Origin: Chloropicon primus
Lineage: Eukaryota
Direction: 5' to 3'
DNA length: 64,000 nt
NCBI GenBank assembly: GCA_023205875.1
Contig: CP060759.1
Coordinates: 1 to 64,000 of the forward strand
This document shows positions 17,773 through 33,128 of the stretch, in pieces. How positions within the stretch are numbered: position 1 is the stretch's first letter; every line of letters starts with the position of its first letter. The notes beneath the pieces were generated by a model. The model had not been told where the DNA came from. It did not search any database and saw nothing but the letters and a program-made list of their open reading frames with translations. The position numbers and the translations under genes are program-made.

Positions 17773-20604
17773 ATGTTGGCAAAGTCGGTGATGGATAAGA
17801 CCAGACTCGTGGTCCTCACTTTTCTTTTTCTTCTGGCCGGGTGTCAAGGTGAGTGCTTTGCCCCAAACCAAACATCTTTTTCCGTCTCTTCTTCTTCGTG
17901 CGTGGGAAGGATACGACCTACCCTACCGGGAAAAAGGTTCGAGCACGCTGACCTTGCTTGCCTTGCGCTTGCTTGTCCTCAGGACTGGAGGGGTTCCGCG
18001 GGGGAGAGGCGCAACATACACCGGCGGCCACAGACACCGAGCAGAGGGCGAGGGATGAAATCAACGTAAGTCGTACAACGAGGACAGGACGACCTGTCGA
18101 TGACGATGACGAGGACGAGGACGAGGACGATGATGGTGGTGACTTTCAAGGCGTGGGAACTGACCCGTGAGTTTTGATTTTTCATCGTTTATCCTTTATC
18201 CCTGAACACGCTGCAGAAACTGAAGCTCGGCGTGATTAACCGAGAGAATTTGGTGTACCCTTCGACCCTGGAGAAGTCCAGCAGCGTGCTCTCGGGCGGG
18301 AGGCACTACTTCGACCTGAAGCCGTCCTTGTGCACCGATGCTTTGATCGAGAGGATCAAGGACGAGGAGGGGGAGGACCCGTACGAGCAGCTGTATGTGA
18401 TGTTCGAGATGTGGGACCTCGGGATGCAGAAAGGCGACGCCTTGCTCTCCATGTCCACTGAAGGGAAGCCTTACTCCACGTTCGACACGGAGAGTGGGAA
18501 CTGGACGGAAAACGCTGGAACAATCTCAGACTTCCCGAGCCACAACTTGTTCCTCCGGTACCACAAGCTCACCGTGCCGGTGGACATTGTGGAAGTCGCC
18601 CAGTGCATCAGAAGCAGAACGAGCGCAAAGTGCGACAAAGTTCTTTGGCATGCCGCGATCTACAACGTGGAGTTCTGGACGAAACAGACCCTGCTGTACC
18701 ACGTGAAGGCCACCTGCACGTACAGGGGGAAGATGCCTTGCGAGAAGACCCTTGGACCTCAGGCCGAGGAATGCAGCGGCAGGGGGACATGCGTCAAGCC
18801 GGGGCAGACAGTCGTCTACGACGCGAACCTGCAGCTGGTGAACGGGTCTTCCACCTCCTCCGCGTACTCCTCGGACACGTCGCTGCTGCAGCCCGACCTC
18901 TCGAAGACCACGGACTTCCACAACTCGTACAACCAGACCTTGTGCCAGTGCAACGCTTTTCATGGGAACACTGGGTGCCAGACCACCGTGTTTGAGCTCA
19001 AGGAAGGGAACTGGATCTATGAGGTTGGCCTCCAGGTGGACAAGTGGAGGTATTACAGGTACATGTCGAAGAATGCCAAGTCCAAAGACATGAGGAGGTA
19101 CGTTCGGATTGAGTTGAAGCGGTCCCAGGGGGACACGATCCTGTTCGCCAAGAACATCTTGGACGGCAGCATCATCAACGGGCTGCCTCACCTGCAAGAC
19201 TACCAGACGATGAGCGACAAGGACAGCTTCAGGAACAGGAAGGATTACCATTACATCATCCTGGAAGACGTGGACGACAAGTACGACAACCAGATTTACT
19301 ACATAGGGGTCCTGAATAACAACGCCCAGATCAAGATGGACGCCAAGTACCACATCAGGGTCCAGGAGATCCTCTTGCCCAGGACGAGCGAGCAAGGAGT
19401 GTGCGGCGACGACTGCGGGGGCGCCAAGAATGGGGAGTGCCAGAGGAACTTGGGGGCGGGGGGCGACAAGTGCGTCTGCAAGGAGGATTACGCGGGGCCC
19501 CTGTGCGAGGGCTTCCTCGAGAAGCTCGCCCCGCAGCAGACGTACAGCGGCATGCTCTCTGCTGGGGAGATCCACTACTACCAGATGGACATCGCGAGCG
19601 ACAAGAACATGAAGCACTACTCGATGTCTGATGGGTTTCTTGGGCCCATCAAGTGGGACCTCGTCATCGAGTTCCACAAGGATGGTGGCCAGGTTGTTGT
19701 GATGGGCAACTACGACCAGACGCCGAGCATCCACACCAACGATTTTGTGTACACCTTCGGTGCGATGGACGAGAAGAACAGCACGACCCAGAACACGATG
19801 CTGACGAGACCCGAGATGGAGAAGGGCAAGTACTACATCGCGGTCTTCAACCACAACTACCAGAACGTTGCCACGACGTGCACTTACAGCATCAGGGTGA
19901 GTTTGGTGAGCAACGTGAACTTGATTTACGGGCCCTACATCCCTGTCGTCCTGGGCGTCCTCGTGGCCATGTTCCTCCTGTTGCTCACGGGAGTGTGCTG
20001 GAAGTTCGCCCTCAGGCACACGTCGATCGGAAGAATCTTGTTCAACAACAGCACGGCGAACACGAGGGCATTCTCCATGGACGCCTTCGGCAACCCCAGA
20101 AACGGAAACGGGGTCGTGGATCTCAGCAGGAACGACAGGAGGGGCCTGAGCAAGGAGGCCATCAACCAGCTGCCGGAGATCAAGTACACCTTGCCCGTTG
20201 GGGACGAGGAGAACAACGAGCCGGTGTGCTCCATCTGCCTCTGTGAGTTTGAGAAGGACGACACTCTGAAGAGGATTCCGGCTTGCAACCACGAGTTCCA
20301 CAAGTCTTGCATCGAGCAGTGGCTCTATCAGCACACCAGCTGCCCCATGTGCAGGGTGGAGATTCAAGCGGAGCCCATGGAGCAGAGGCCTATTCCCCAC
20401 TCCCCCTCCCGCAGCTCCCCTGAGCTGGAGGAGGAGGAAAACGGGGAGGAGGAGGAAAACGGAGTGCCACCCACCGCCAACGTCACCAGCAACAATCTTT
20501 CCGGCGGCAACGGGGGTGTCCAGGCCGCCGTGGAGCTCCAGCCCATTCAGTCCCGCACCTCTTACAGGCTGGTGTTCCCCTCCCCCTCCCCCTCCAATGT
20601 ATGA
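17773..20604 (+). CDS. Type I membrane RING-H2 E3 ubiquitin ligase with an EGF-like ectodomain; introns 17849-17982 and 18066-18216
   Basis: Signal peptide; EGF-like CSGRGTC...CQC and CVCKEDYAGPLC; TM VVLGVLVAMFLLLL; GLSKEAI; CSICLCEF...CNHEFHKSCIEQWL...CPMC; both introns keep the frame. Confidence 0.85.
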
Positions 20605-23264: not shown

Positions 23265-24602
23265 TCACGACCTGTCCTGCAGTTTCGCCTCGAGTTTGGC
23301 GTGCCTCACACTCCACTCGCGAATGATGGCTCGAAGCCTCGCGTTCTCGGCAACGTGCTGCTGGTTCGTGCTCAGCAGCTGCTGGTTTTCCGTGTCCAGG
23401 TCCATGAGTCTTTTCTTGCCCTCCCTCACTTCCTTCTGCAGCGTGTCCCTCTCGCCGTTCAGGGACCTTATCTCTCTGTCCCTTGCAGCGACGATGTGGT
23501 CCAAGTCGCTGGAATGCTGGCCCGAAGTCATTTCTGGGCTCAAGCCTCCTCTCGCCGGGTTTGCTGCCCCTGCCCCAGCCCCCCTTACTCCCGCGCCGCC
23601 ACTGCCACCACCCTGGTCAAGCCTGGCCTGGAGCTTGAGCACCTGCTTGCTCAGCTGAGTCGTCCTCAGTTGCAGGAACCTGATCAGCTCGGCCTGCTCG
23701 TCGGTCACGCTGTCCAGCCCCATCCCGTGGTCTATGGCGTACAGCAGCGGGGTGTCCTCGGATCCCATCTCTTGCAGGGCAGTCAACGCGTCCGGTGGAG
23801 GCTTTCTTTTGTTGTGCCTCACGAGAATCCGAGCGTAGTGTACGAAAATGATGAGGAGGAGGACCTCTTCCAAACCCAAGATGCACTTGATGGCGTCGTT
23901 CAGGCAGAACTTGGGGGACTCTATCCACACCCCCAAAGCCAGCAAGGTGCACTCTCCGAGGATGACCACGAGCGGGGGTATGAGGACGAAGGGCTTCAGC
24001 CTGGAGTGGAGCCTTATGTAACCCTGCCTCTTTTGGATCTTGTGCCCCCTTCTCATGGCTTTCGACAGCACGAGCGAGAGGACCACGAAGAAGGTGTGTA
24101 TGCTCGCATCCAGCTTTGATTTGAAGTCCAACGTTTCCCCCTCATGCCTGTCCGTGCTGTACCCGAAGGGATTGGCGAAGATGTACACGCAGAACAGCGA
24201 AAGGAGCGCCAAGTACGCACCGAAGTAGAGGTGCGTCCTCAGGGGATAGAACTTGGCTATCCCAGCGAAGAGGTCCTCGCCCCTAATGTCCCTCGAGGAC
24301 GAGGTCATCGGGCTGCCCTGGTACTGGTACATCGCTAAACAGAAGGAGAGGAGAGGAAACTTCCGTGTCAGTCGTTGTCGACGAAGCGGTTTCGTGTGTT
24401 GCGCGCGTGCGTGTTGCGTGTGGCGAGGCCCCTGCCCTGGGCCCAGGACTCACCTGGCGAGGCTCCCTCGAAAAAGTTGAGTCGTGCAGTGGGTTCGCTC
24501 CCACCTTTCGCTTGCTCGTTTCGTGTCGTTGCTCCCAAGGCCCTCCTCCCTATCCTGCGCCTGTCCTCGGCTAGTTCATCGTCGTATGGACTGAGCACTT
24601 TC
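23265..24602 (-). CDS. TMEM192/FIP1-family membrane coiled-coil protein; intron 24335-24453; 5' end not resolved
   Basis: 4 TM helices, PPPDAL, EQAELIRFLQ, ENARLRAIIREWS...KLE; the upstream exon joins in frame. Confidence 0.7.
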
Positions 24603-24919
24603 CTTGGAGAGAGAGAGAAACCACGCGTATCCACAGAGTCTTCCGTCCTGCGTTTCGTCCTCTTGCTCCTAATTCTGTCCCCCTCGCTTTGCGTTATGTC
24701 GCGTTATGTCGTGTTATGTCGTGTTGTGTGGTCCCCCCGCCGAGCAGTCCATTCCCCCTCTCCCCTCGTCCTCGTCCTCGTCCTCCCTCTCTCTGTCGTT
24801 CTCGTTCTCTCGTTCTCGAGCGCGCGATCGCGATCGATTCAAAGGCGGGACCACCTTTGGCGGTTACGGAACAAGGAGAACCATCACGCAACAACACCAA
24901 CACCAACACCAACACCAAC

Positions 24920-25326
24920 ATGGGGAAGGGAAAACAAGGTAGGGCCACAACAACACACACACACACACACAACACAACACAACGACAACATGACATGACA
25001 CTGTCTAACCAAAACACCACGCCGCTCTCTCACCGCTCTTCTTTCCTCTTCTGTCTTCTCTGTTTTTTGTTCTTCGGGTGGGTAGAGGACTCGTGCTGCT
25101 ACAGGGTGTGTTGCTTTCCGTGCTACTGTCTCGGAGGGGCGGTGGACGTCTTGTGCGACTTCTTCAAGCTCGTCCTGTGCTGCCCCTGCAGGTGCATCTG
25201 CGGTGAGTTCGCTCTCGAGGGCGTCTCCTGGATTCTTCGCTTGCTCACTCACTTCTCTCTCTCTCTCTCTCTCCAACAAACCAAAACCCTAAAGGATGCC
25301 CGGAGCTAGCAGCGGAGCGAAGCTAA
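24920..25326 (+). CDS. Spliced 55-aa cysteine-rich microprotein (exons 24920-24938, 25086-25202, 25295-25326)
   Basis: Two GT-AG introns give MGKGKQEDSCCYRVCCFPCYCLGGAVDVLCDFFKLVLCCPCRCICGCPELAAERS*. Confidence 0.65.
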
Positions 25327-25398
25327 AACCAAGCCAAGGACACACTCCAACGTGGTTTGGTTTTGTTTTGTTTTGTTTTGTTACAGATGTTTTATGTA

Positions 25399-28300
25399 CT
25401 AGGTGGTTTCCTTGCTGCACTCGAACAGGGCCTCGAGGTCCCTCACGTCCATGACCAGCGCCCTCGCCTCCGCGTTGGCGACCCCGTAGCCGATGACCAC
25501 CTTGCCCTGCTCGGGCAGAACCAGCAGGCTGCTGGCAAAGGCTCTGGTGCTTCCCTGCAGGGGCAGGGGCTTGCTCACGCCCAGCACCTTGAACGGAGGC
25601 TTCGCCTCGAACTTGTATGCCAGCGATGTGTACACCCTCTCCTTCCTGGTGAGATAGTGAAGGAGGGCGAGGTAGTAATCGTCCCCGTCGGGATTCGACA
25701 CGAGCGTGGCCGACCCACTGCCGTGGATGTCGGCTTCGGCGGCCAAGGAGGCCTGGAAGAGCGGGAGGTAGTCCGCCGTGGACCACTTCTCCACGCAGGC
25801 GCCGTCCTCCTTCCTCACCTGAAGAACCTTGTGCGGGTAGACCGAGTACACGTAAAGCAGCTGGTCGCCGTACTGGAAACCGATCCAATTCTTCTCGTCC
25901 CTCGTCTCGGACCCGCACTTGAGCCTCACGGCGTGGGGCAGGGTGCCGGACTCAACTGCCGTGGGGTCGTAGGGGGAAGACAGGAACATCTGCTGCACGC
26001 CGTACCTCGTCTGGTGGCACTGGGCGGTGATCGCCAGATTCGGGGGGAGGAGAGAATTGAAGGTCAAGAAGGTGGCCGCGCCCAGAGACAGCAGCTTTGG
26101 GTCCTCTGGACCTGTTACGACTTTCCTGATCAGAGTGTTGTTGCTTGGAATGTACACGGGTTCGGGCTCGCACAACGGACCAAACCTCGGGTCGTGGAGT
26201 GACCCCCAACGCGATCGGTGAGGCTCCGTGACGTTGGAGACGAGAGCCAGGTCCTCGACCTTGAAGTCACTCAAGTTCCATGAGCCGGCATCCCACCCTA
26301 GCCAAGAGCCGGCATCCATCGCATTGTGCCCAACAACGAGGGAGGAGTACCACCTCGTGACGATCTCAGTGACACTTTTGCCTTCCCACTGCACGTTCTT
26401 CCTCTTCTCCTCCGTTATGCCGTGGAGGCGCGCCACCAGGACCAGCTTTCCCTTCACGACAGCCAGGCTTGGGTTGATCACAGCCAAGCCCCCATCTCCG
26501 CCTGGGGGGTACCGCTGGAAGTTGAGCCGCATGTCAACGGCAATGTACTTGCCTCTAGTCGTGTTCACGTGAACTGGGAGAGCGGGGTAGGACCCTTCGC
26601 CCGAGCTCCTTGGCTTGTACAGCTCTGATAGGGCGACCATGACCACCATCAGCAGTGCTGGCGAAATAACAGCAGAAGCCCTCGCCAGCATCCAAAGCCT
26701 CCTGGCATTCTCCTGTATTGCTTTGGCGCTGATGATAGCCACCGACGTCAGAAAGATGAAGAAGGAGGGGTCCCTTATGGTCTCCGTCGGCCACACCTCG
26801 TAGGCCACGAACTGTAAAACGTACTGGGGGTAACTGGAATCCCCCACAACCTTTGGGATGCTCTTGAAGGCCCTGGCAACCGGGTCGCCTTCGAAGGATA
26901 GCCCGAGCAGAACGAGACCTTGTAACGGCATCAAGATGGACAGTCTCGTAGAGATTTTGTGGGCGGGCGGCTGGATCTCTCCCACGTTCATGACGAGCAA
27001 GAGTCCTGCGTAACCGACCGAGGCGCAGCCGCACTGCACGGCCCGCCAAAGCAAAGGCAGTTTCTCCATCAGGTGTGACCTGTGGTCCTCCAGAATGAGA
27101 ATTCTGAGCCTGGAGAGGAGCATTCCGAAAGCGAAAACATGCCAGTAACACAGTGGGTTGAACTTGATGAACACGGTCCATATATCCACGGCGTTGTCCA
27201 CGGCTCCGGTCCGGTGCTCCTTGTACCACAAGAGAGGCTCGCCGATCAAAGGCGGCATCACCATGGAAGCGAGCCATGGGACCAACGCCAGCGCAAAGAG
27301 AGCGAGGAGCGTTTGCTTGAGCCTCATTTCCTTGACCACCGCGGTGTACAAAGGCTTGAATGAGACCCAGTAAGCCACCATACAGCTCAGGAACCAGCAG
27401 TGCACCTGAAGAGCCCTTTCGGTTGCCATTGGAATGAAACTCTGGAGCAACCAGGACTGAAGGACCAGAATCCAAGTCTGGGGCAGCGTCTTACTCTGGG
27501 CCACCCGTATCAGCGCTGCTATCAGCACCCCTACTGCGTACATGGGGAAGATGTTCGCCAGCCTCTTCCAGACGAAGGTGAGCGTGTCGTCAACTTTGGA
27601 TGGATCCCTTGAAGTGAGCCTTGCGTGAGTGAGAACAAAACCAGAGAGCATGAAAAACCAAGGTACCCACGAGAAGCCGTACTGGAACATGTGAATCGGG
27701 TTTTTGAGCGCGCCCTTGGCGTAGAGGTGGCCGACAACAATGTGGACGCTTGCAATGAACCTCGCAAATCCCAAAGCCCCCAAGTAATGGGTTGGCTTCT
27801 TCGCCTCTGCCGCGGAATCTGGGTTCTGAGCGGTGGTCCCCTCGAGCTTCGATGGTGGCTTGCGCATCATCCACTTTCTTCGCTTGAATTCCTTGCCAAA
27901 GAGGATGAGAATGGCAGCAACAGAGACCAAGCTGCAGAGCAGCCAGGCATCCCCCGCGCTTCCTTGCCACACCCTCCTCCTTGCCCCTGTACCGCGGGGG
28001 GGGTGGGACGTGTCCACGTGGATGTCAGGTCTGCAGGCCGCGTCGGAGGCGTTCCTCACCCTGGTGTCACTGCTGATCGCCCTCGCTCCCACGGAGCAGC
28101 TTCGCGAGTTAAGGCATTCCCAATCTTTGCACCCATCTGTGTTTTTTGCGCACATCTCTTTGTACAGTGGGCACTGACACTCAGAGCATTCTAGGTCCTC
28201 AAGGTTGCCAGCGGTGCAGCCCTTCGTGAAGGTGACCTGCTGGGGGCACCCCACGTCGTGCTCCTTGTACTCGCAGATCGAGTTCAGGAGGATCGTAACG

Positions 28301-30159
28301 ACCCACAGGTGCATCGCGGGGGTCCAGTGGTTGTCGACGATTTCCATCGGCTTGAGGGTCGATATGGAGAAGACGTCCAACCACTTGATCTTGCTGCTCC
28401 CCAAATTCGCGATGGCTGTTTTGACGTCCTCCATCATGGCTGGCAAGACACTCATCGCTTCCATCTGGTACAGTTGGGGAGAAATGAAACACCCGAGGCT
28501 TGCCTCGCACTGGGATTGGGCTGAGGCCAAAAAGTTCTCGAAATCTCTTTTGTACACAGCGACCGTTTTAGCGGCGCCTAGACCACGGTAAGCCGGCTGA
28601 GTGCAAAAGTATATGTCCCACAACCCGCAAACCAGATACCAAATCATGATCTGGGCCCAGAGGGTCTTGTTGGCGCCTTTCCACGGCGTAGTCAAGTCAT
28701 TCATGGCACTCCACGCCTGAGCTGTGTTCTGCCAGAACTGGCCGATCACCAGCGTGATCCGAACCAGGCCTTCCGTGCTCTGCTTGCCATTCTTGTCCGT
28801 GTACGTCGCCTCGTCCCACTCCCTCACGAGCCTGGACCTCATGGTCTCGGTGATCGCCCCTTGAAACTGGTCGTAGTCGCCTGACATGTATTCCTCGAAC
28901 GTGGTCATTTGTGACCACAGCTTCCTGTTCTCAAACACGATCTCACCGTTCAGGTCGAACACGATATCGACCATATCCACGTAAAAGGTTCTCATGTCCT
29001 CCCTCTGCGTGTGCAGGTGACCCGGCTTGATTGTATTGATCCAGTTCAAGTATGTCAAGATGGCGTTGCTTCCGCCCGACACGAGGATCCACGATCCCTC
29101 CAAGCACTTGAGGTGGTCCTCCGTGCTCGCTACGTGGTAAGAGCACTTGGTCCCTTTGGGCGCGTACACCCAGCCGTCCACGAACTCTCCCTCGTTGTGG
29201 GGCTCCTTGCACCTCGGCGTGTCGCAATCGGCGAAGAAGGGGTCCACTTCCTCGACATCGCCGACGCAAGCGTTTGGGACCCCCGCAACGGTGGGGGGGC
29301 TCACTCCGAGAAGGCTGCTTGTCTCCAAGCCACAGGTCTGCGGAACTGCTCCTGCCGCGTTCGTTGGAAGCTTGCCCTTCAGAACGCAAAGGCCCTGGCT
29401 CAGGTTCTCTCCGAAGGAGAAGGTGAACCCCGCGCAGGCGCCCGGCACCACGCCGGACTCGCAGCGCTCCTGGCAAGAGGTTGCGTTCATCACGGACACC
29501 CCTGATGTTGTCGCGTTGGAAGGCCACCAGCCTTGGGCCGTGCCGAAGGCTAGCAAGTCACTCTGCCCCGAGACCTCCAGGGTCTCCAAGTCGGCGCAGG
29601 CGCCGCCCTCTGCCTCGCCGAACGACTTGCCCGCGGCGTAGCACGTCTCCTCCCCGTCCCCCTTGCGCAGCCCGTCGAAGGGTGTCATCCATTTCACGCC
29701 GCAGTCCCTTGGCGCGCTGAAACTGTCGTAACCCGAATCCTCTGTCCACATCGGACTCGCCCAAGTCGTGGCCTTCTTGAACTCGCACTTGAACTCGCTC
29801 TTCTTCCAGGTGAAGACTTCGCAATCTGATAGCTGCTGGCACAGTTCCTCGCACTCGCTCGGGTGCATGATGTGCTTGTCCACAAGCACCCCCTCGCCGT
29901 ACCAAGCCAGAGCTTCCCGGTAGCAAGATTCCCCGCACGCCACGCCCACGAGGGGTGCGAAGGCCGCAGCCCCAGCGGACGAGGAAGACGAAGACGGCTC
30001 GCCATACGTCCCTGCAGTGAGCTGGTACCCGTGGCACTTTTCCGTTACCAGCGCACTCGCCGTTCCCGACGTGGACAAAAAGCCACCGCTGACCAGCAGG
30101 ACCGAGATCCCACAGGACCACTTCAAAGATGGCGCCTTTCGCCTCCTCGCCTTCCCCAT
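25399..30159 (-). CDS. Multidomain membrane protein: 2x PAN/Apple + SGNH-like esterase/acetyltransferase + acyltransferase-3 + GH130/beta-mannosyltransferase-like propeller
   Basis: Signal peptide; CEELCQQLSDCEVFTW (PAN); ILVSGGSN and VDNH (SGNH); ARFIASVHIVVGH, WFFMLSGF and HCWFLS (AT3); INPS, GPEDPK and EKNW (propeller). Confidence 0.8.
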   Translation of the reverse strand: MGKARRRKAPSLKWSCGISVLLVSGGFLSTSGTASALVTEKCHGYQLTAGTYGEPSSSSSSAGAAAFAPLVGVACGESCYREALAWYGEGVLVDKHIMHPSECEELCQQLSDCEVFTWKKSEFKCEFKKATTWASPMWTEDSGYDSFSAPRDCGVKWMTPFDGLRKGDGEETCYAAGKSFGEAEGGACADLETLEVSGQSDLLAFGTAQGWWPSNATTSGVSVMNATSCQERCESGVVPGACAGFTFSFGENLSQGLCVLKGKLPTNAAGAVPQTCGLETSSLLGVSPPTVAGVPNACVGDVEEVDPFFADCDTPRCKEPHNEGEFVDGWVYAPKGTKCSYHVASTEDHLKCLEGSWILVSGGSNAILTYLNWINTIKPGHLHTQREDMRTFYVDMVDIVFDLNGEIVFENRKLWSQMTTFEEYMSGDYDQFQGAITETMRSRLVREWDEATYTDKNGKQSTEGLVRITLVIGQFWQNTAQAWSAMNDLTTPWKGANKTLWAQIMIWYLVCGLWDIYFCTQPAYRGLGAAKTVAVYKRDFENFLASAQSQCEASLGCFISPQLYQMEAMSVLPAMMEDVKTAIANLGSSKIKWLDVFSISTLKPMEIVDNHWTPAMHLWVVTILLNSICEYKEHDVGCPQQVTFTKGCTAGNLEDLECSECQCPLYKEMCAKNTDGCKDWECLNSRSCSVGARAISSDTRVRNASDAACRPDIHVDTSHPPRGTGARRRVWQGSAGDAWLLCSLVSVAAILILFGKEFKRRKWMMRKPPSKLEGTTAQNPDSAAEAKKPTHYLGALGFARFIASVHIVVGHLYAKGALKNPIHMFQYGFSWVPWFFMLSGFVLTHARLTSRDPSKVDDTLTFVWKRLANIFPMYAVGVLIAALIRVAQSKTLPQTWILVLQSWLLQSFIPMATERALQVHCWFLSCMVAYWVSFKPLYTAVVKEMRLKQTLLALFALALVPWLASMVMPPLIGEPLLWYKEHRTGAVDNAVDIWTVFIKFNPLCYWHVFAFGMLLSRLRILILEDHRSHLMEKLPLLWRAVQCGCASVGYAGLLLVMNVGEIQPPAHKISTRLSILMPLQGLVLLGLSFEGDPVARAFKSIPKVVGDSSYPQYVLQFVAYEVWPTETIRDPSFFIFLTSVAIISAKAIQENARRLWMLARASAVISPALLMVVMVALSELYKPRSSGEGSYPALPVHVNTTRGKYIAVDMRLNFQRYPPGGDGGLAVINPSLAVVKGKLVLVARLHGITEEKRKNVQWEGKSVTEIVTRWYSSLVVGHNAMDAGSWLGWDAGSWNLSDFKVEDLALVSNVTEPHRSRWGSLHDPRFGPLCEPEPVYIPSNNTLIRKVVTGPEDPKLLSLGAATFLTFNSLLPPNLAITAQCHQTRYGVQQMFLSSPYDPTAVESGTLPHAVRLKCGSETRDEKNWIGFQYGDQLLYVYSVYPHKVLQVRKEDGACVEKWSTADYLPLFQASLAAEADIHGSGSATLVSNPDGDDYYLALLHYLTRKERVYTSLAYKFEAKPPFKVLGVSKPLPLQGSTRAFASSLLVLPEQGKVVIGYGVANAEARALVMDVRDLEALFECSKETT

Positions 30160-30563
30160 GGTGGCCTCCCAGGCTTCCTCCTCTTGCCCTCTGACCCCTC
30201 CCGTCCCCCCCCCTCCTCCTCCTCCTCCCCTTAACCTCCCCTCCTGCCAGGCAACGGTTTGTCCTCCCTCGCGAAGCACATTTGTCTCCTTGAATCCCCT
30301 GTCCCTCCTCTCCCTCCTCCCTCCTCCCTGTCCCCTCCTCCCTCCTCCCTGTCCCCTCCTCCCTGGTCGGGCTCCGCTCCAAGGCACCTGTCCCCGCTCC
30401 TGGTTCCAACTTCCAATTTCAATTTCATTTTCATCCCCTCCCCTCGTCATTCGCATCCGCCCCACGACCACGACGACGACGACGGGCGCGAGGAGGAGGC
30501 GAGGTGAGGTGAGGTGACCAACCAACCAACCAACCAACCAACCAACCAACCAACCAACGGTTC

Positions 30564-30611
<48 letters not shown>

Positions 30612-30742
30612 TTTGGTTTGGGCGACAGGGACTGAGACGTTCTTCCTTGCATGGCAATCCTTTCTCCTTTCCTTGTTTCGTTTCCTATGGTTTCAAGCAG
30701 GCAGGAGGGTTGGCTTGGCGCGAAGGGGAAGAGACGAAGGGG

Positions 30743-31513: not shown

Positions 31514-33128
31514 TCAGTTGTAGTTCTCCACCCCCATGTCCCTGAGCGCGGCGATCGCAACGTCGTTGCAGATCTTCTGGTGCTGTTCCTGGATGGCCCT
31601 CACTTGCTTCTCCATGCCCGCCTTGAGGAGCAAGGCCTTCACTTTGGCGCTCCTCACGGCGCAGTTCCTCAACAGCATGCAGCACTGCTTCATCAGCTTG
31701 GGCTTGTCCAGGTATTTCGCGATGAATTCAAAGACAAAGTCGAAACCCCCGCAGTCCGCGAAGTGTTCCGCAACGTCAGGATTCCGCAGAGCTATGTTGG
31801 TCAGGATGTAAAGCAGGGACTGGATGACAGTAGTGCTGCTGGCGGTGAGGTTGTTCTCCTTGTCGTGCCCCTCGAAGATCTCGATGGCCATCTCGATCGC
31901 CTCCGACTCTATGAGCTTCTTCTTCACGGTATCGCAGGCGGAGATCTGCTTCAGCAGCATGAGGACGGACATGGCGACGTCCTTGGACTTGGCAGCCGCT
32001 GACCCGGCGCTGGACCTCAGGACAGAGAGGAGCATGGGGATGCAGTTGGGCTTCTCCTCCACAAACTTTTTGCAGATCTCGTCGTTCAGTGCGATCTTCC
32101 TCATGGCGATGGCCAAGCTTCGCATCACGTCCCTCCTCGCGGGCTCCTCGATCTCTTTCGCGTGCATGTTCACCTCGAAGCAGGACATGAGCGCGCTCGT
32201 CACGCCATCCTTGTCCATGCTCAGCGCCTTCATGAACTCTCCGCCGAACTGGGCCTCCAGGGCGAGGGGCGTTGGCCTTTCGTCGGAGAGGGAAACGGGA
32301 AAGGGGCGACCAAAGCAGTCAGAGAAGCGGAACCGAGGGTTCGGGGGTTCGGGGGAGACTCGCGACGTTATCGATGACTCACCTGGTGTCGTCCGCCGTC
32401 AGGATGCCCTTGATGCAAGAGCAGCACGCTTCCACGTTCGTCTTGCTGTGAGTTCCCTTGTCTCCGTACCGCCCCAGGTTGGCCGCCAAAAGTTTGGGCA
32501 GCCCGTCCGACATGAAGTTGCACTTGCCCTCCTCCTGCTCCTTCATCGAGATGGCGCTCACCTCCAGCAGCAGGTCCAGGAGGGCGACGTCTTCAGGAGT
32601 GGCGTCGTCCTTCCCGCACTCCTCCAGCTTCATCATCATTCTCCTCGGGCCTTTCCCCTCCACGAAGTGGTCGCGCGCGTGGTCCGACTCGAGCTGCAAC
32701 TTGAGAGTGCCGAGCGCCAGAGAGAGGAGTTGGCGGTCGCTTTCGGCCTCCGCCCGATCGCACACCGCGAAGAGGGACTCGACGCTGCCCTTCTTCGCCG
32801 AAGCGAGGAAGAGCTGCGCTTTCTTCCCCTCGTCGTCCTCCTCCAGGGCCCTGAGCAGCTCCTCCTTGAGCCCCTGGACCCCCTCCCTGACGTCTTTGTC
32901 CTGGTCCTCCCTTTCGAGAACCCTCTTGAGCTCCGTCGCCATGTTCGCGGTTGGCATGTTGGCCAAGACCTGCGCCCCCTTGACCTGTTTGATGATCCCT
33001 TCCAAGGAAACCCCTTGTATGTCATACTCCTCTATCGCAGCCTGCACGGCTTCGTTTGGTTCGAGTCCCAACCCTTCCACCATCTCGTCCACCGCATCGT
33101 CAAACTCCTCCTGCGTGATCCTCTTCAT
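31514..33128 (-). CDS. ARMC6: Armadillo repeat-containing protein 6 homolog; intron 32278-32382
   Basis: ITQEEFDDAVDEMVEGLGLEPNEAVQAAIEEYDIQGVSL N-terminus; LNDEICKK; AIAALRDMG C-terminus. Confidence 0.85.

What the first reader, a model, noticed from the sequence alone, without database searches (positions are those of the whole stretch)
25399..30159. Single-polypeptide glycan-modification assembly: PAN-PAN-SGNH-AT3-propeller
Seen: one intronless 1586-aa ORF with a signal peptide, two PAN/Apple-like Cys modules, an SGNH-like domain (GGSN at about 29070, DNH at about 28330), a multi-TM acyltransferase-3 block (about 27790-26620), and a C-terminal domain with NPS, GPEDPK and EKNW motifs as in GH130 or fungal beta-1,2-mannosyltransferase propellers. 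Established: bacterial OatA/OafA fuse AT3 then SGNH, and CASD1/Cas1p fuse SGNH to a different TM domain. Inference: SGNH before AT3, plus lectin-like and glycosyltransferase-like domains, suggests a multifunctional enzyme that binds, extends and O-acylates cell-wall or N-glycans. I do not recognise this architecture.
Basis: partly seen in the sequence, partly recalled or inferred. Interest (0 to 1): 0.72.

Follow-up and report, generated by a model that had tools for sequence, protein, structure and literature searches.

The report
Algal build-and-acylate glycan enzyme family
A tiny green alga carries one gene, shared with several unrelated groups of marine algae, that joins predicted sugar-binding modules, a two-part unit predicted to add acyl groups to sugars, and a domain predicted to link mannose sugars, so it is likely a single membrane enzyme that both extends and chemically caps cell-surface glycans.

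Summary
Observation confirmed. The 1586-codon ORF is real (Chloropicon primus, annotated hypothetical) and each domain guess survives testing. AlphaFold model (pLDDT 88): residues 356-631 match plant xylan O-acetyltransferase XOAT1 best (Z 13.2); the C-terminal domain is a five-bladed propeller whose 26 best matches in the VIA re-ranking are GH130 or GT108 (Z 15.8-19.9). It keeps the catalytic Asp and most tabulated active-site residues. AT3 motifs are intact. The order SGNH-AT3-propeller recurs in 52 of 196 relatives, never permuted, including a second green alga, dinoflagellates (complete transcripts), a pelagophyte and a pinguiophyte; the N-terminal modules swap (PAN, ILEI; weakly C-type lectin, WSC). 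One correction: SGNH before an AT3-clan domain is the known CASD1/Cas1p order, so the novelty is the fused GH130/GT108-like propeller and the swappable front end. Most likely a secretory-pathway membrane enzyme that beta-glycosylates (probably mannosylates) a glycan and O-acylates it. No activity, donor, linkage or acceptor is shown. I found no description of the fusion in the searched papers. New variant of a known kind; interest 0.66.

The parts
25399..30159 (-). Whole ORF, 1586 aa (P0001)
   Evidence: near-identical public protein QDZ21555.1
30052..30159 (-). Likely signal peptide, aa 1-36 (basic start, weak hydrophobic stretch, A-S-A end)
   Evidence: sequence, hydropathy; inferred, no predictor run
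29701..30036 (-). PAN/Apple module 1, about aa 42-153
   Evidence: Pfam PAN_1 best stretch aa 99-140; weak match to microneme protein 4, E 0.041
29332..29643 (-). PAN/Apple module 2, about aa 173-276
   Evidence: second Pfam PAN stretch reported without coordinates; limits inferred from the Cys pattern
28066..29271 (-). SGNH domain of the PC-esterase (TBL/CASD1/NXPE) type plus Cys-rich tail, aa 297-698; G-G-S364-N, W507, E606, H611
   Evidence: XOAT1 6cci Z 13.2, rmsd 3.2, 185 aligned over aa 356-631; Atlas leads NXPE4_C/PC-Esterase; S364 36 of 37, H611 37 of 37
27862..27957 (-). Extra membrane helix TM0, aa 735-766, followed by a basic, likely cytosolic loop
   Evidence: model helix H380-411; hydropathy 2.14; loop charge
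26602..27801 (-). Acyltransferase-3 domain, aa 787-1186: 10 core helices plus a linker helix; R800-x10-H811, F835xxxxG840, R866, G1012, S1109xxxY1113
   Evidence: PF01757 in 12 of 23 members of A1, best E 2.2e-18; conservation; helices
25405..26553 (-). Five-bladed beta-propeller like GH130/GT108, aa 1203-1585; N1229, R1244, E1352-D1353, K1423-N1424, H1501, Y1510, F1541, N1562
   Evidence: fold; residue equivalence; conservation
26101..26103 (-). Codon of Asp1353, predicted catalytic residue of the propeller
   Evidence: D in 59 of 59 rows with a residue; E-D-P motif aligns, through viral relatives, with the MTP2 Asp whose D94N variant is deposited as inactive

Best explanation
This is a single-gene member of a conserved algal protein family that is likely a secretory-pathway (probably Golgi) membrane enzyme predicted to both extend a glycan and O-acylate it. 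Shown: one open frame; the domain order; its conservation in several algal groups; intact catalytic motifs. Predicted by the model: SGNH fold, 12 membrane-length helices, GH130/GT108-like propeller. Inferred: (1) signal peptide plus 12 helices put PAN, SGNH and propeller on the lumenal side; (2) AT3 takes acyl-CoA (probably acetyl-CoA) from the cytosol via R800/R866 and presents the acyl group at H811; (3) the acyl group passes to SGNH Ser364 (His611 as base) and on to a sugar hydroxyl, as in OafB/OatA, or both domains acylate separately, as reported for CASD1; (4) the propeller uses Asp1353 as an inverting base to add a sugar, most likely mannose from GDP-mannose, making the beta-linked chain or side branch that is then acylated; (5) the swappable lectin-like modules pick or hold the acceptor.
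For: Folds: XOAT1 is the best non-propeller match (Z 13.2) ahead of GDSL esterases (Z 12.2-12.6); ranks 1-21 GH130 (Z 16.9-19.9), 22-26 Leishmania MTP GT108 (15.8-16.4), then GH62/GH43 at 14.5 or less; Foldseek's top 10 rows are all beta-1,2-mannoside GH130. Against the published 11-residue active-site table (PMC12814180 suppl. Table 3), nine positions find an identical or like residue in order in P0001 (N1229, R1244, E1352, D1353, K1423, N1424, H1501, Y1510, F1541), each present in 32-37 of 37 full-length relatives for the eight counted, F1541 in 55 of 56. Glu before the catalytic Asp marks the beta-1,2/1,3 enzymes, which include all GT-capable ones in that table; beta-1,4 phosphorylases have Tyr. 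The Arg needed for phosphorylase activity appears to be Ser in most members (S22, R5, T4 of 37 at 1439). AT3 key residues intact. Order SG-AT3-PROP in 52 of 196, no permutation; distances of three separate domain trees correlate 0.84-0.91 over 37 proteins. Complete Trinity ORFs of Biecheleria cincta and a Phaeomonas parva transcript carry all three domains. Sequons and conserved Cys pairs in both soluble regions; predicted cytosolic loops carry 3-5 K+R, lumenal 1-3. Viral relatives of the propeller are fused to or lie beside glycan enzymes.
Against: No biochemistry. The Asp that binds O6 of the -1 mannose is Asn in P0001 (Asp in 32 of 37). K-N at 1423-1424 is the beta-1,4-type pair, not the K/R-D of the beta-1,2 enzymes, and VIA ranks beta-1,4 phosphorylases first, so linkage and even the sugar are open. 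The SGNH domain has GGS for GDS and no family-wide DxxH. AT3 lacks the second Arg of RxxR and the TMH1 Asp, and has Gln for the His after SxxxY. The AT3 fold did not appear in any fold-search list. Five relatives carry the propeller after a signal-like start without AT3, and one has SG-PROP without AT3, so coupling is not obligatory. Hits were gathered with multi-domain queries, only 150 of 1179 were listed, and many are cut gene calls. No RNA piece spans this gene.
Confidence: 0.55

Rival explanations
1. CASD1-like O-acyltransferase with a non-catalytic propeller: the propeller only binds or presents a mannoside or nucleotide-sugar acceptor. The acylated sugar could be a sialic-acid-like or Kdo-like residue rather than mannose.
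For: P0001 has Asn for the O6-binding Asp and probably lacks the phosphate Arg. C. primus has 57 GT29 sialyltransferase-like genes (PMC13213038 Table 3, passage) and CASD1 acylates CMP-sialic acid.
Against: Asp1353 and eight other pocket residues are near-invariant across distant algae. In MTP4 the D285N change kept transferase and lost only phosphorylase activity (PMC12814180 passage). Secreted propeller-only relatives keep the same motifs.
Confidence: 0.17
2. The propeller is a phosphorylase, hydrolase or transglycosylase that trims or remodels a beta-mannan-like glycan; the protein is a remodelling machine, and the SGNH domain may remove acyl groups.
For: The best structural matches are phosphorylases. 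H1501, Y1510, N1424 and an extra Arg/His at 1479 could bind phosphate. PMC2824669 proposed PC-esterases as de-acylases.
Against: The phosphorylase-defining Arg is not evident in most members. XOAT1 and CASD1, the closest characterised SGNH domains, are transferases. A lumenal pool of mannose-1-phosphate is not known to me (recalled).
Confidence: 0.15
3. All domains are active but on different steps or substrates; the fusion only co-localises them (no build-and-cap coupling), or the sugar donor is not mannose.
For: Propeller-only and SG-PROP forms exist; one propeller is fused to a sulfotransferase-like domain instead (P0238, E 4.9e-4, under the Pfam cut-off); CASD1's two domains act as separate catalytic sites.
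Against: The three-domain order is kept across green algae, dinoflagellates and stramenopiles with similar tree shapes, which is easier to explain by one shared product.
Confidence: 0.1
4. Artefact: a chance read-through or assembly join of neighbouring genes.
For: No contig spans the gene; coverage is patchy.
Against: Full-length orthologue at 50% identity over 97% (P0003); 52 relatives with the same order; complete transcript ORFs; one RNA-type contig (26227-26669) bridges the last helix and the propeller start.
Confidence: 0.02

Closest known systems
CASD1 (human sialate O-acetyltransferase) and Cryptococcus Cas1p
   Same: Lumenal PC-esterase-type SGNH domain N-terminal to an AT3-clan (CL0316/TmAT) multi-TM domain; eukaryotic secretory pathway (PMC2824669, PMC12423673, PMC13043746).
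   Different: Here the TM domain is Acyl_transf_3 proper (PF01757 in relatives; no Cas1_AcylT hit), the SGNH motifs are GGS and E-x4-H rather than GDS and DxxH, and lectin-like modules and a GH130/GT108-like propeller are fused on.
Bacterial AT3-SGNH fusions OafB, OafA, OatA
   Same: AT3 core motifs; an 11th helix that carries a soluble domain to the far side (PMC9558356, PMC9833829 passages).
   Different: The domain after helix 11 is a propeller, not SGNH; SGNH sits in front behind an extra helix; second Arg of RxxR absent.
Plant TBL/XOAT1 with RWA
   Same: SGNH fold best matches XOAT1 (Z 13.2).
   Different: Plants split the soluble and membrane parts into separate proteins (RWA are TM-only) and have no fused sugar-transfer domain here.
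GT108 Leishmania MTP1/2/4 and GH130 beta-mannoside phosphorylases/transferases
   Same: Five-bladed propeller, E-D-P catalytic motif, ordered N, R, K/R-D/N, H, Y, F pocket residues.
   Different: 9-16% identity; stand-alone soluble enzymes; here membrane-tethered, Cys-braced, with sequons; K-N instead of R-D; phosphate Arg probably Ser; no Pfam GH130 hit above threshold (best E 0.13 in 1 of 29).
Fungal Bmt/Wry beta-1,2-mannosyltransferases (GT91)
   Same: Recalled: Golgi-lumenal, GDP-mannose dependent, with EDP and EKNW-like motifs; phage relatives of the propeller carry the automatic label 'beta-mannosyltransferase'.
   Different: No Pfam hit to a Bmt family in 29 propeller sequences at E up to 10; no solved GT91 structure appeared in the fold lists; PMC8476585 notes none existed in 2021.
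Unclassified GH130-like propellers of giant viruses and phages
   Same: NP-S, G-x-E-D, EKNW, R/H-G-G/S, F and G-x-x-D motifs; profile match prob. 98.85, E 4e-17 over 144 columns; best BFVD matches E 1.7e-10. A 2026 preprint reports such viral folds as unannotated.
   Different: Viral versions are fused to other glycan enzymes (LicD, fucosyltransferase, WcaK, HtrL_YibB) or stand alone, not to SGNH-AT3 in the records seen.

Membership tests
PC-esterase / TBL / CASD1 lumenal SGNH domain | SGNH alpha/beta fold | tested here: met
   XOAT1 Z 13.2, rmsd 3.2, 185 aligned; GDSL esterases Z 12.2-12.6
PC-esterase / TBL / CASD1 lumenal SGNH domain | Nucleophile Ser after strand 1 in a GDS motif | tested here: not met
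   Ser364 conserved (36 of 37) but the motif is G-[GAS]-S, no Asp
PC-esterase / TBL / CASD1 lumenal SGNH domain | DxxH with catalytic Asp and His before the last helix | tested here: not met
   His611 37 of 37; position -3 hydrophobic; Asp609 only 9 of 37; Glu606 34 of 37 may supply the acid; geometry not checked
PC-esterase / TBL / CASD1 lumenal SGNH domain | Trp/His after strand 3 in place of GxND (PMC2824669) | tested here: met
   W507 in 32 of 37, after model strand E143-148
PC-esterase / TBL / CASD1 lumenal SGNH domain | Pfam PC-Esterase or NXPE hit | tested here: not met
   none for the domain at E up to 10 or in 23 members of A1 at E up to 0.1; only Atlas leads at 0.91-0.92 with 12-16% of members
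Acyltransferase-3 (PF01757) | Pfam family match | tested here: met
   12 of 23 members of A1, best E 2.2e-18; above the curated cut-off in 11 of 29 proteins; P0001 itself not hit
Acyltransferase-3 (PF01757) | R-x10-H in helix 1 | tested here: met
   R800 48 of 48, H811 49 of 49 rows with a residue; motif from PMC9833829
Acyltransferase-3 (PF01757) | FxxxxG (helix 2), Gly (helix 6), SxxxY (helix 9) | tested here: met
   F835 48/48, G840 48/48, S1109 49/52, Y1113 50/52; G1012 36/36; motifs from PMC12423673 section 6
Acyltransferase-3 (PF01757) | RxxR in helix 3 | tested here: not met
   first Arg R866 48 of 49; second position is T/S/G/N. The first Arg is the one kept across the superfamily
Acyltransferase-3 (PF01757) | 10-helix TmAT fold | tested here: inconclusive
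   helix count fits but no TmAT structure was listed, which the propeller dominated
CASD1/Cas1p family | TM domain of the Cas1_AcylT family (PF07779) | tested here: not met
   no PF07779 hit; relatives hit PF01757
CASD1/Cas1p family | PC-esterase-type domain N-terminal to an AT3-clan domain | tested here: met
GH130 / GT108 | Five-bladed beta-propeller closest to these families | tested here: met
   Z 15.8-19.9 against 14.5 or less for GH43/GH62; one deacetylase propeller at Z 15.5 in the wide search
GH130 / GT108 | Catalytic Asp in E/Y-D-P | tested here: met
   D1353 59 of 59; transitive alignment to MTP2
GH130 / GT108 | Phosphate site Tyr, Asp/Asn, His and Arg (His in strict GT108) | tested here: inconclusive
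   Y1510, N1424, H1501 kept; the Arg/His position maps by spacing near S1439 (S22, R5, T4 of 37), not confirmed by superposition
GH130 / GT108 | Asp binding O6 of the -1 mannose | tested here: not met
   Asn1562 in P0001; Asp in 32 of 37 relatives; column aligned to RaMP1
GH130 / GT108 | Sequence-level family match | tested here: not met
   PF04041 E 0.13 in 1 of 29; PDB profile hit E 2.4
GH130 / GT108 | Activity on beta-mannosides with GDP-Man or Man-1-P | not testable with these tools
   needs assay
GT91 fungal Bmt | Sequence or structure match to Bmt proteins | tested here: inconclusive
   no Pfam hit; no Bmt sequence or structure was compared directly
PAN/Apple | Pfam PAN match above cut-off | tested here: met
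   PAN_1 27.8 bits against cut-off 21.4, two stretches

The most novel reading that the evidence does not exclude
An undescribed pan-algal family of single-chain glycan assembly lines: a new glycosyltransferase family of the GH130/GT108 propeller clan, akin to giant-virus propellers, builds a beta-mannosyl chain or cap in the Golgi and hands it directly to a fused SGNH-AT3 acyl relay, while exchangeable lectin-like modules set which surface glycan is modified. It would point to an unrecognised O-acylated beta-mannoside on green algae, dinoflagellates and stramenopiles.
Probability: 0.35. Interest if true: 0.82.

Novelty: new variant of a known kind. Interest (0 to 1): 0.66.

Why it matters
Surface glycans of most marine microalgae are chemically unknown (a review says no biochemical data exist on non-scale matrix components of prasinophytes; PMC10762512 passage). 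This family gives a concrete, testable prediction of a shared O-acylated, probably beta-mannosylated glycan and one enzyme to make it. The propeller escapes Pfam in all 29 sequences scanned, so profile-based surveys likely miss a whole algal family related to GH130/GT108. A three-active-site chain is also a natural test bed for the open question whether SGNH and AT3 domains relay one acyl group or act separately, and its link to giant-virus propellers may bear on host-virus glycan exchange (direction not tested).

Tried and rejected
Own genome not held: paralogues and copy number untested. NCBIfam: 0 families. Single-sequence fold of the propeller failed (pLDDT 42) and was not used. PDB sequence searches gave nothing significant for P0001 beyond a weak PAN hit or for profiles A1, A3, A5, A6, A8 (best relevant row RaMP1 E 2.4). 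PHROGs: nothing better than E 0.023; tblastn of the propeller against phages: no match. GTDB scan with the propeller pattern: 14 candidates, 0 confirmed, which tests close relatives only. Search for stand-alone SGNH relatives of 220-702 aa: 0 of 1217 candidates, no evidence of absence. No TmAT/HGSNAT row in the fold lists; the AT3 domain was not folded alone. RNA: no RNA holder listed; the laid runs are guessed RNA, supported by a spliced GT-AG intron of the neighbour gene (24335-24453), with gaps in cover that prove nothing; a 29635-29837 joint (GC..GC, 20-letter side) was treated as spurious. Upstream ATG 30456 rejected as start. No complex prediction was run. Gene neighbours give no clue (RING protein, CID/RRM protein, TMEM192, ribosomal L34, ARM, NTF2). 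Literature searches that found no description of the fusion: 0 papers; 0; listings only, none on this family; the library lacks most subscription papers and CAZy/InterPro architecture tables were not available. bioRxiv supplements (paper) could not be seen and may list related families. Earlier findings: none by sequence or all words; three bacterial MBOAT/SGNH-propeller notes were shown and do not bear on this.
Full report
1. The observation. The protein is near-identical to Chloropicon primus QDZ21555.1, named hypothetical or 'Apple domain-containing'. An in-frame ATG 99 codons upstream is unlikely to be used: flat codon GC, no match among stored relatives, and a strong context at 30159. Pfam sees only PAN in this protein; NCBIfam sees nothing. 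Contigs from two runs guessed to be RNA, which do splice out a GT-AG intron of the neighbouring gene, cover pieces of the SGNH, AT3 and propeller regions, one bridging the last helix and the propeller start; none spans the gene.

2. It is a family. The word-index search gave 37 relatives and the HMMER search of cluster representatives 1179 at E up to 0.001, of which 150 were listed. With my own HMMs of the three core domains, built from the first hits, 196 proteins split into 52 SG-AT3-PROP, 75 AT3-PROP, 11 SG-AT3, 1 SG-PROP, 31 PROP only and 26 AT3 only; no other order occurs. Many of the shorter forms are gene calls cut by contig ends, and the queries favour multi-domain hits. Named carriers of all three domains: Chloropicon, Cymbomonas tetramitiformis, Biecheleria cincta (Trinity ORFs marked complete), Aureococcus anophagefferens, Phaeomonas parva (transcript); partial records in Triparma laevis, Effrenium voratum, Gymnodinium smaydae and Cladocopium goreaui. 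Most hits are unnamed. Separate trees of the three domains for 37 near-complete proteins (five cluster duplicates left out) give patristic correlations of 0.84, 0.86 and 0.91, and Chloropicon groups with Cymbomonas in all three. This fits inheritance as one unit; it shows shared history, not functional coupling, and no support values or root were tested. The front end varies: PAN, one to six ILEI repeats, weak Lectin_C and WSC matches, a beta-lactamase-like domain in one, or only a signal-like start.

3. Domain tests. An AlphaFold2 model of aa 356-1555 on a 64-sequence alignment reached pLDDT 88.4, pTM 0.72; it lacks the PAN region and the last two propeller strands. SGNH: residues 356-631 match XOAT1 (Z 13.2, rmsd 3.2, 185 aligned) ahead of GDSL esterases; Atlas leads point to NXPE/PC-esterase. 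AT3: PF01757 in 12 of 23 members of A1; R-x10-H, FxxxxG, helix-3 first Arg, helix-6 Gly and SxxxY are kept; the second Arg of RxxR is not (against passages of PMC9833829 and section 6 of PMC12423673). Propeller: Foldseek's ten best rows are beta-1,2-mannoside GH130 enzymes; VIA ranks GH130 1-21, GT108 22-26, then a drop to GH43/GH62; the independent wide search agrees. A small profile of viral relatives, linked to the algal family by HMM-HMM (prob. 98.85, C-terminal half only), retrieves eight PDB sequences at E up to 10, all GT108 or beta-1,2 GH130, best E 0.0096, and aligns E-D-P with the MTP2 Asp whose D94N variant is deposited as inactive. Against the published pocket table (PMC12814180 supplement part 1) nine of eleven positions are matched in order; the O6-binding Asp is Asn here but Asp in 32 of 37 relatives, and the phosphate Arg maps by spacing to a position that is mostly Ser. 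These equivalences rest on motifs and profiles, not on a superposition.

4. Topology. The model has one helix before AT3, ten core helices and a linker helix, twelve in all (membrane location inferred). With a signal peptide this places PAN, SGNH and propeller on the lumenal side, R800/R866 on the cytosolic side and H811 on the lumenal side, as in OafB. Loop charges lean the same way (3-5 K+R against 1-3), and both soluble regions hold sequons and conserved cysteines.

5. Mechanism. Best reading (0.55): AT3 supplies acyl groups from cytosolic acyl-CoA, the SGNH domain passes them to a sugar through Ser364, the propeller adds a sugar (likely mannose from GDP-mannose) with Asp1353 as base, and the front modules hold the acceptor. 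Transferase is preferred to phosphorylase because of Glu before the Asp, the likely loss of the phosphate Arg, the report that MTP4 D285N keeps transferase activity, and the lumenal setting (recalled: Golgi supplies nucleotide sugars). Against: K-N and the VIA ranking lean to beta-1,4 enzymes, so linkage is open; propeller-only forms exist; CASD1's two domains are reported to act as separate sites (PMC13043746 passages), which may hold here too. Rivals: binding-only propeller (0.17), remodelling enzyme (0.15), uncoupled activities or another sugar (0.10), artefact (0.02).

6. Comparison and novelty. It works like CASD1/Cas1p joined to a GT108/GH130-type enzyme, but is a member of neither by the tests above; only the AT3 and PAN domains pass family matches. 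SGNH-then-AT3-clan is the known Cas1p order (PMC2824669 parts 1-3 of 4 read; PMC12423673 passages), and bacterial AT3 proteins put SGNH after an eleventh helix (PMC9558356 passages). What I did not find in print is the fusion to a GH130/GT108-like propeller or this algal propeller family (searches; open-access library only). A 2026 preprint (passages) reports unannotated GH130-like propellers in giant viruses; BFVD matches and loci L001-L005 show such propellers fused to or beside glycan-modifying genes. Other papers seen: PMC10913872, PMC8476585, PMC10762512, PMC13213038 (passages).

7. Verdict. Real, conserved, not described in the papers searched; new variant of a known kind; interest 0.66. 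The boldest reading left open, a coupled build-and-cap glycan enzyme defining a new glycosyltransferase family across marine algae, has probability 0.35 and would merit 0.82.

Noticed in passing
P0214, P0215, P0234, P0238, P0257 (relatives): Secreted-looking proteins with the same propeller but no SGNH or AT3, followed by 270-460 extra residues; in P0238 these weakly match Sulfotransfer_2 (E 4.9e-4, under cut-off), in the others Pfam finds nothing.
   Followed up: partly
P0161, P0162, P0167, P0177, P0196, P0139: A divergent subfamily with little or nothing before the SGNH domain, G-A/G-S-V-T at the nucleophile and, in some, Arg at the position that may be the phosphorylase switch; it branches apart in all three trees.
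   Followed up: partly
P0071: A relative with a beta-lactamase-like serine hydrolase domain (E 1.2e-11) in front of PAN-SGNH-AT3-propeller; pieces of its cluster are labelled as an archaeal MAG in NCBI, perhaps a binning error.
   Followed up: no
L001 1994-4684: Giant-virus-type gene fusing HtrL_YibB (E 5.7e-15), TPR-like repeats and an EKNW propeller.
   Followed up: partly
L002 3485-5801: Viral EKNW propeller gene with an N-terminal membrane anchor, convergent with a GT2 synthase-like gene.
   Followed up: partly
window 24335-24453 (-): GT-AG intron just upstream of the TMEM192-like gene's ATG, spliced in contigs of X1 and X2.
   Followed up: yes
window 18400-20604 (+): 734-aa protein with Cys-rich EGF-like stretches, one likely membrane helix and a C-terminal RING-H2 finger (RING by Pfam; the rest read from the sequence): a possible receptor-like E3 ligase.
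   Followed up: no
window 31514-33128 (-): Two consecutive ORFs, the first ARM-repeat-like, probably exons of one gene.
   Followed up: no
window 24884-24991, 25239-25388, 30456-30624: Short simple repeats in the intergenic DNA flanking the gene.
   Followed up: no
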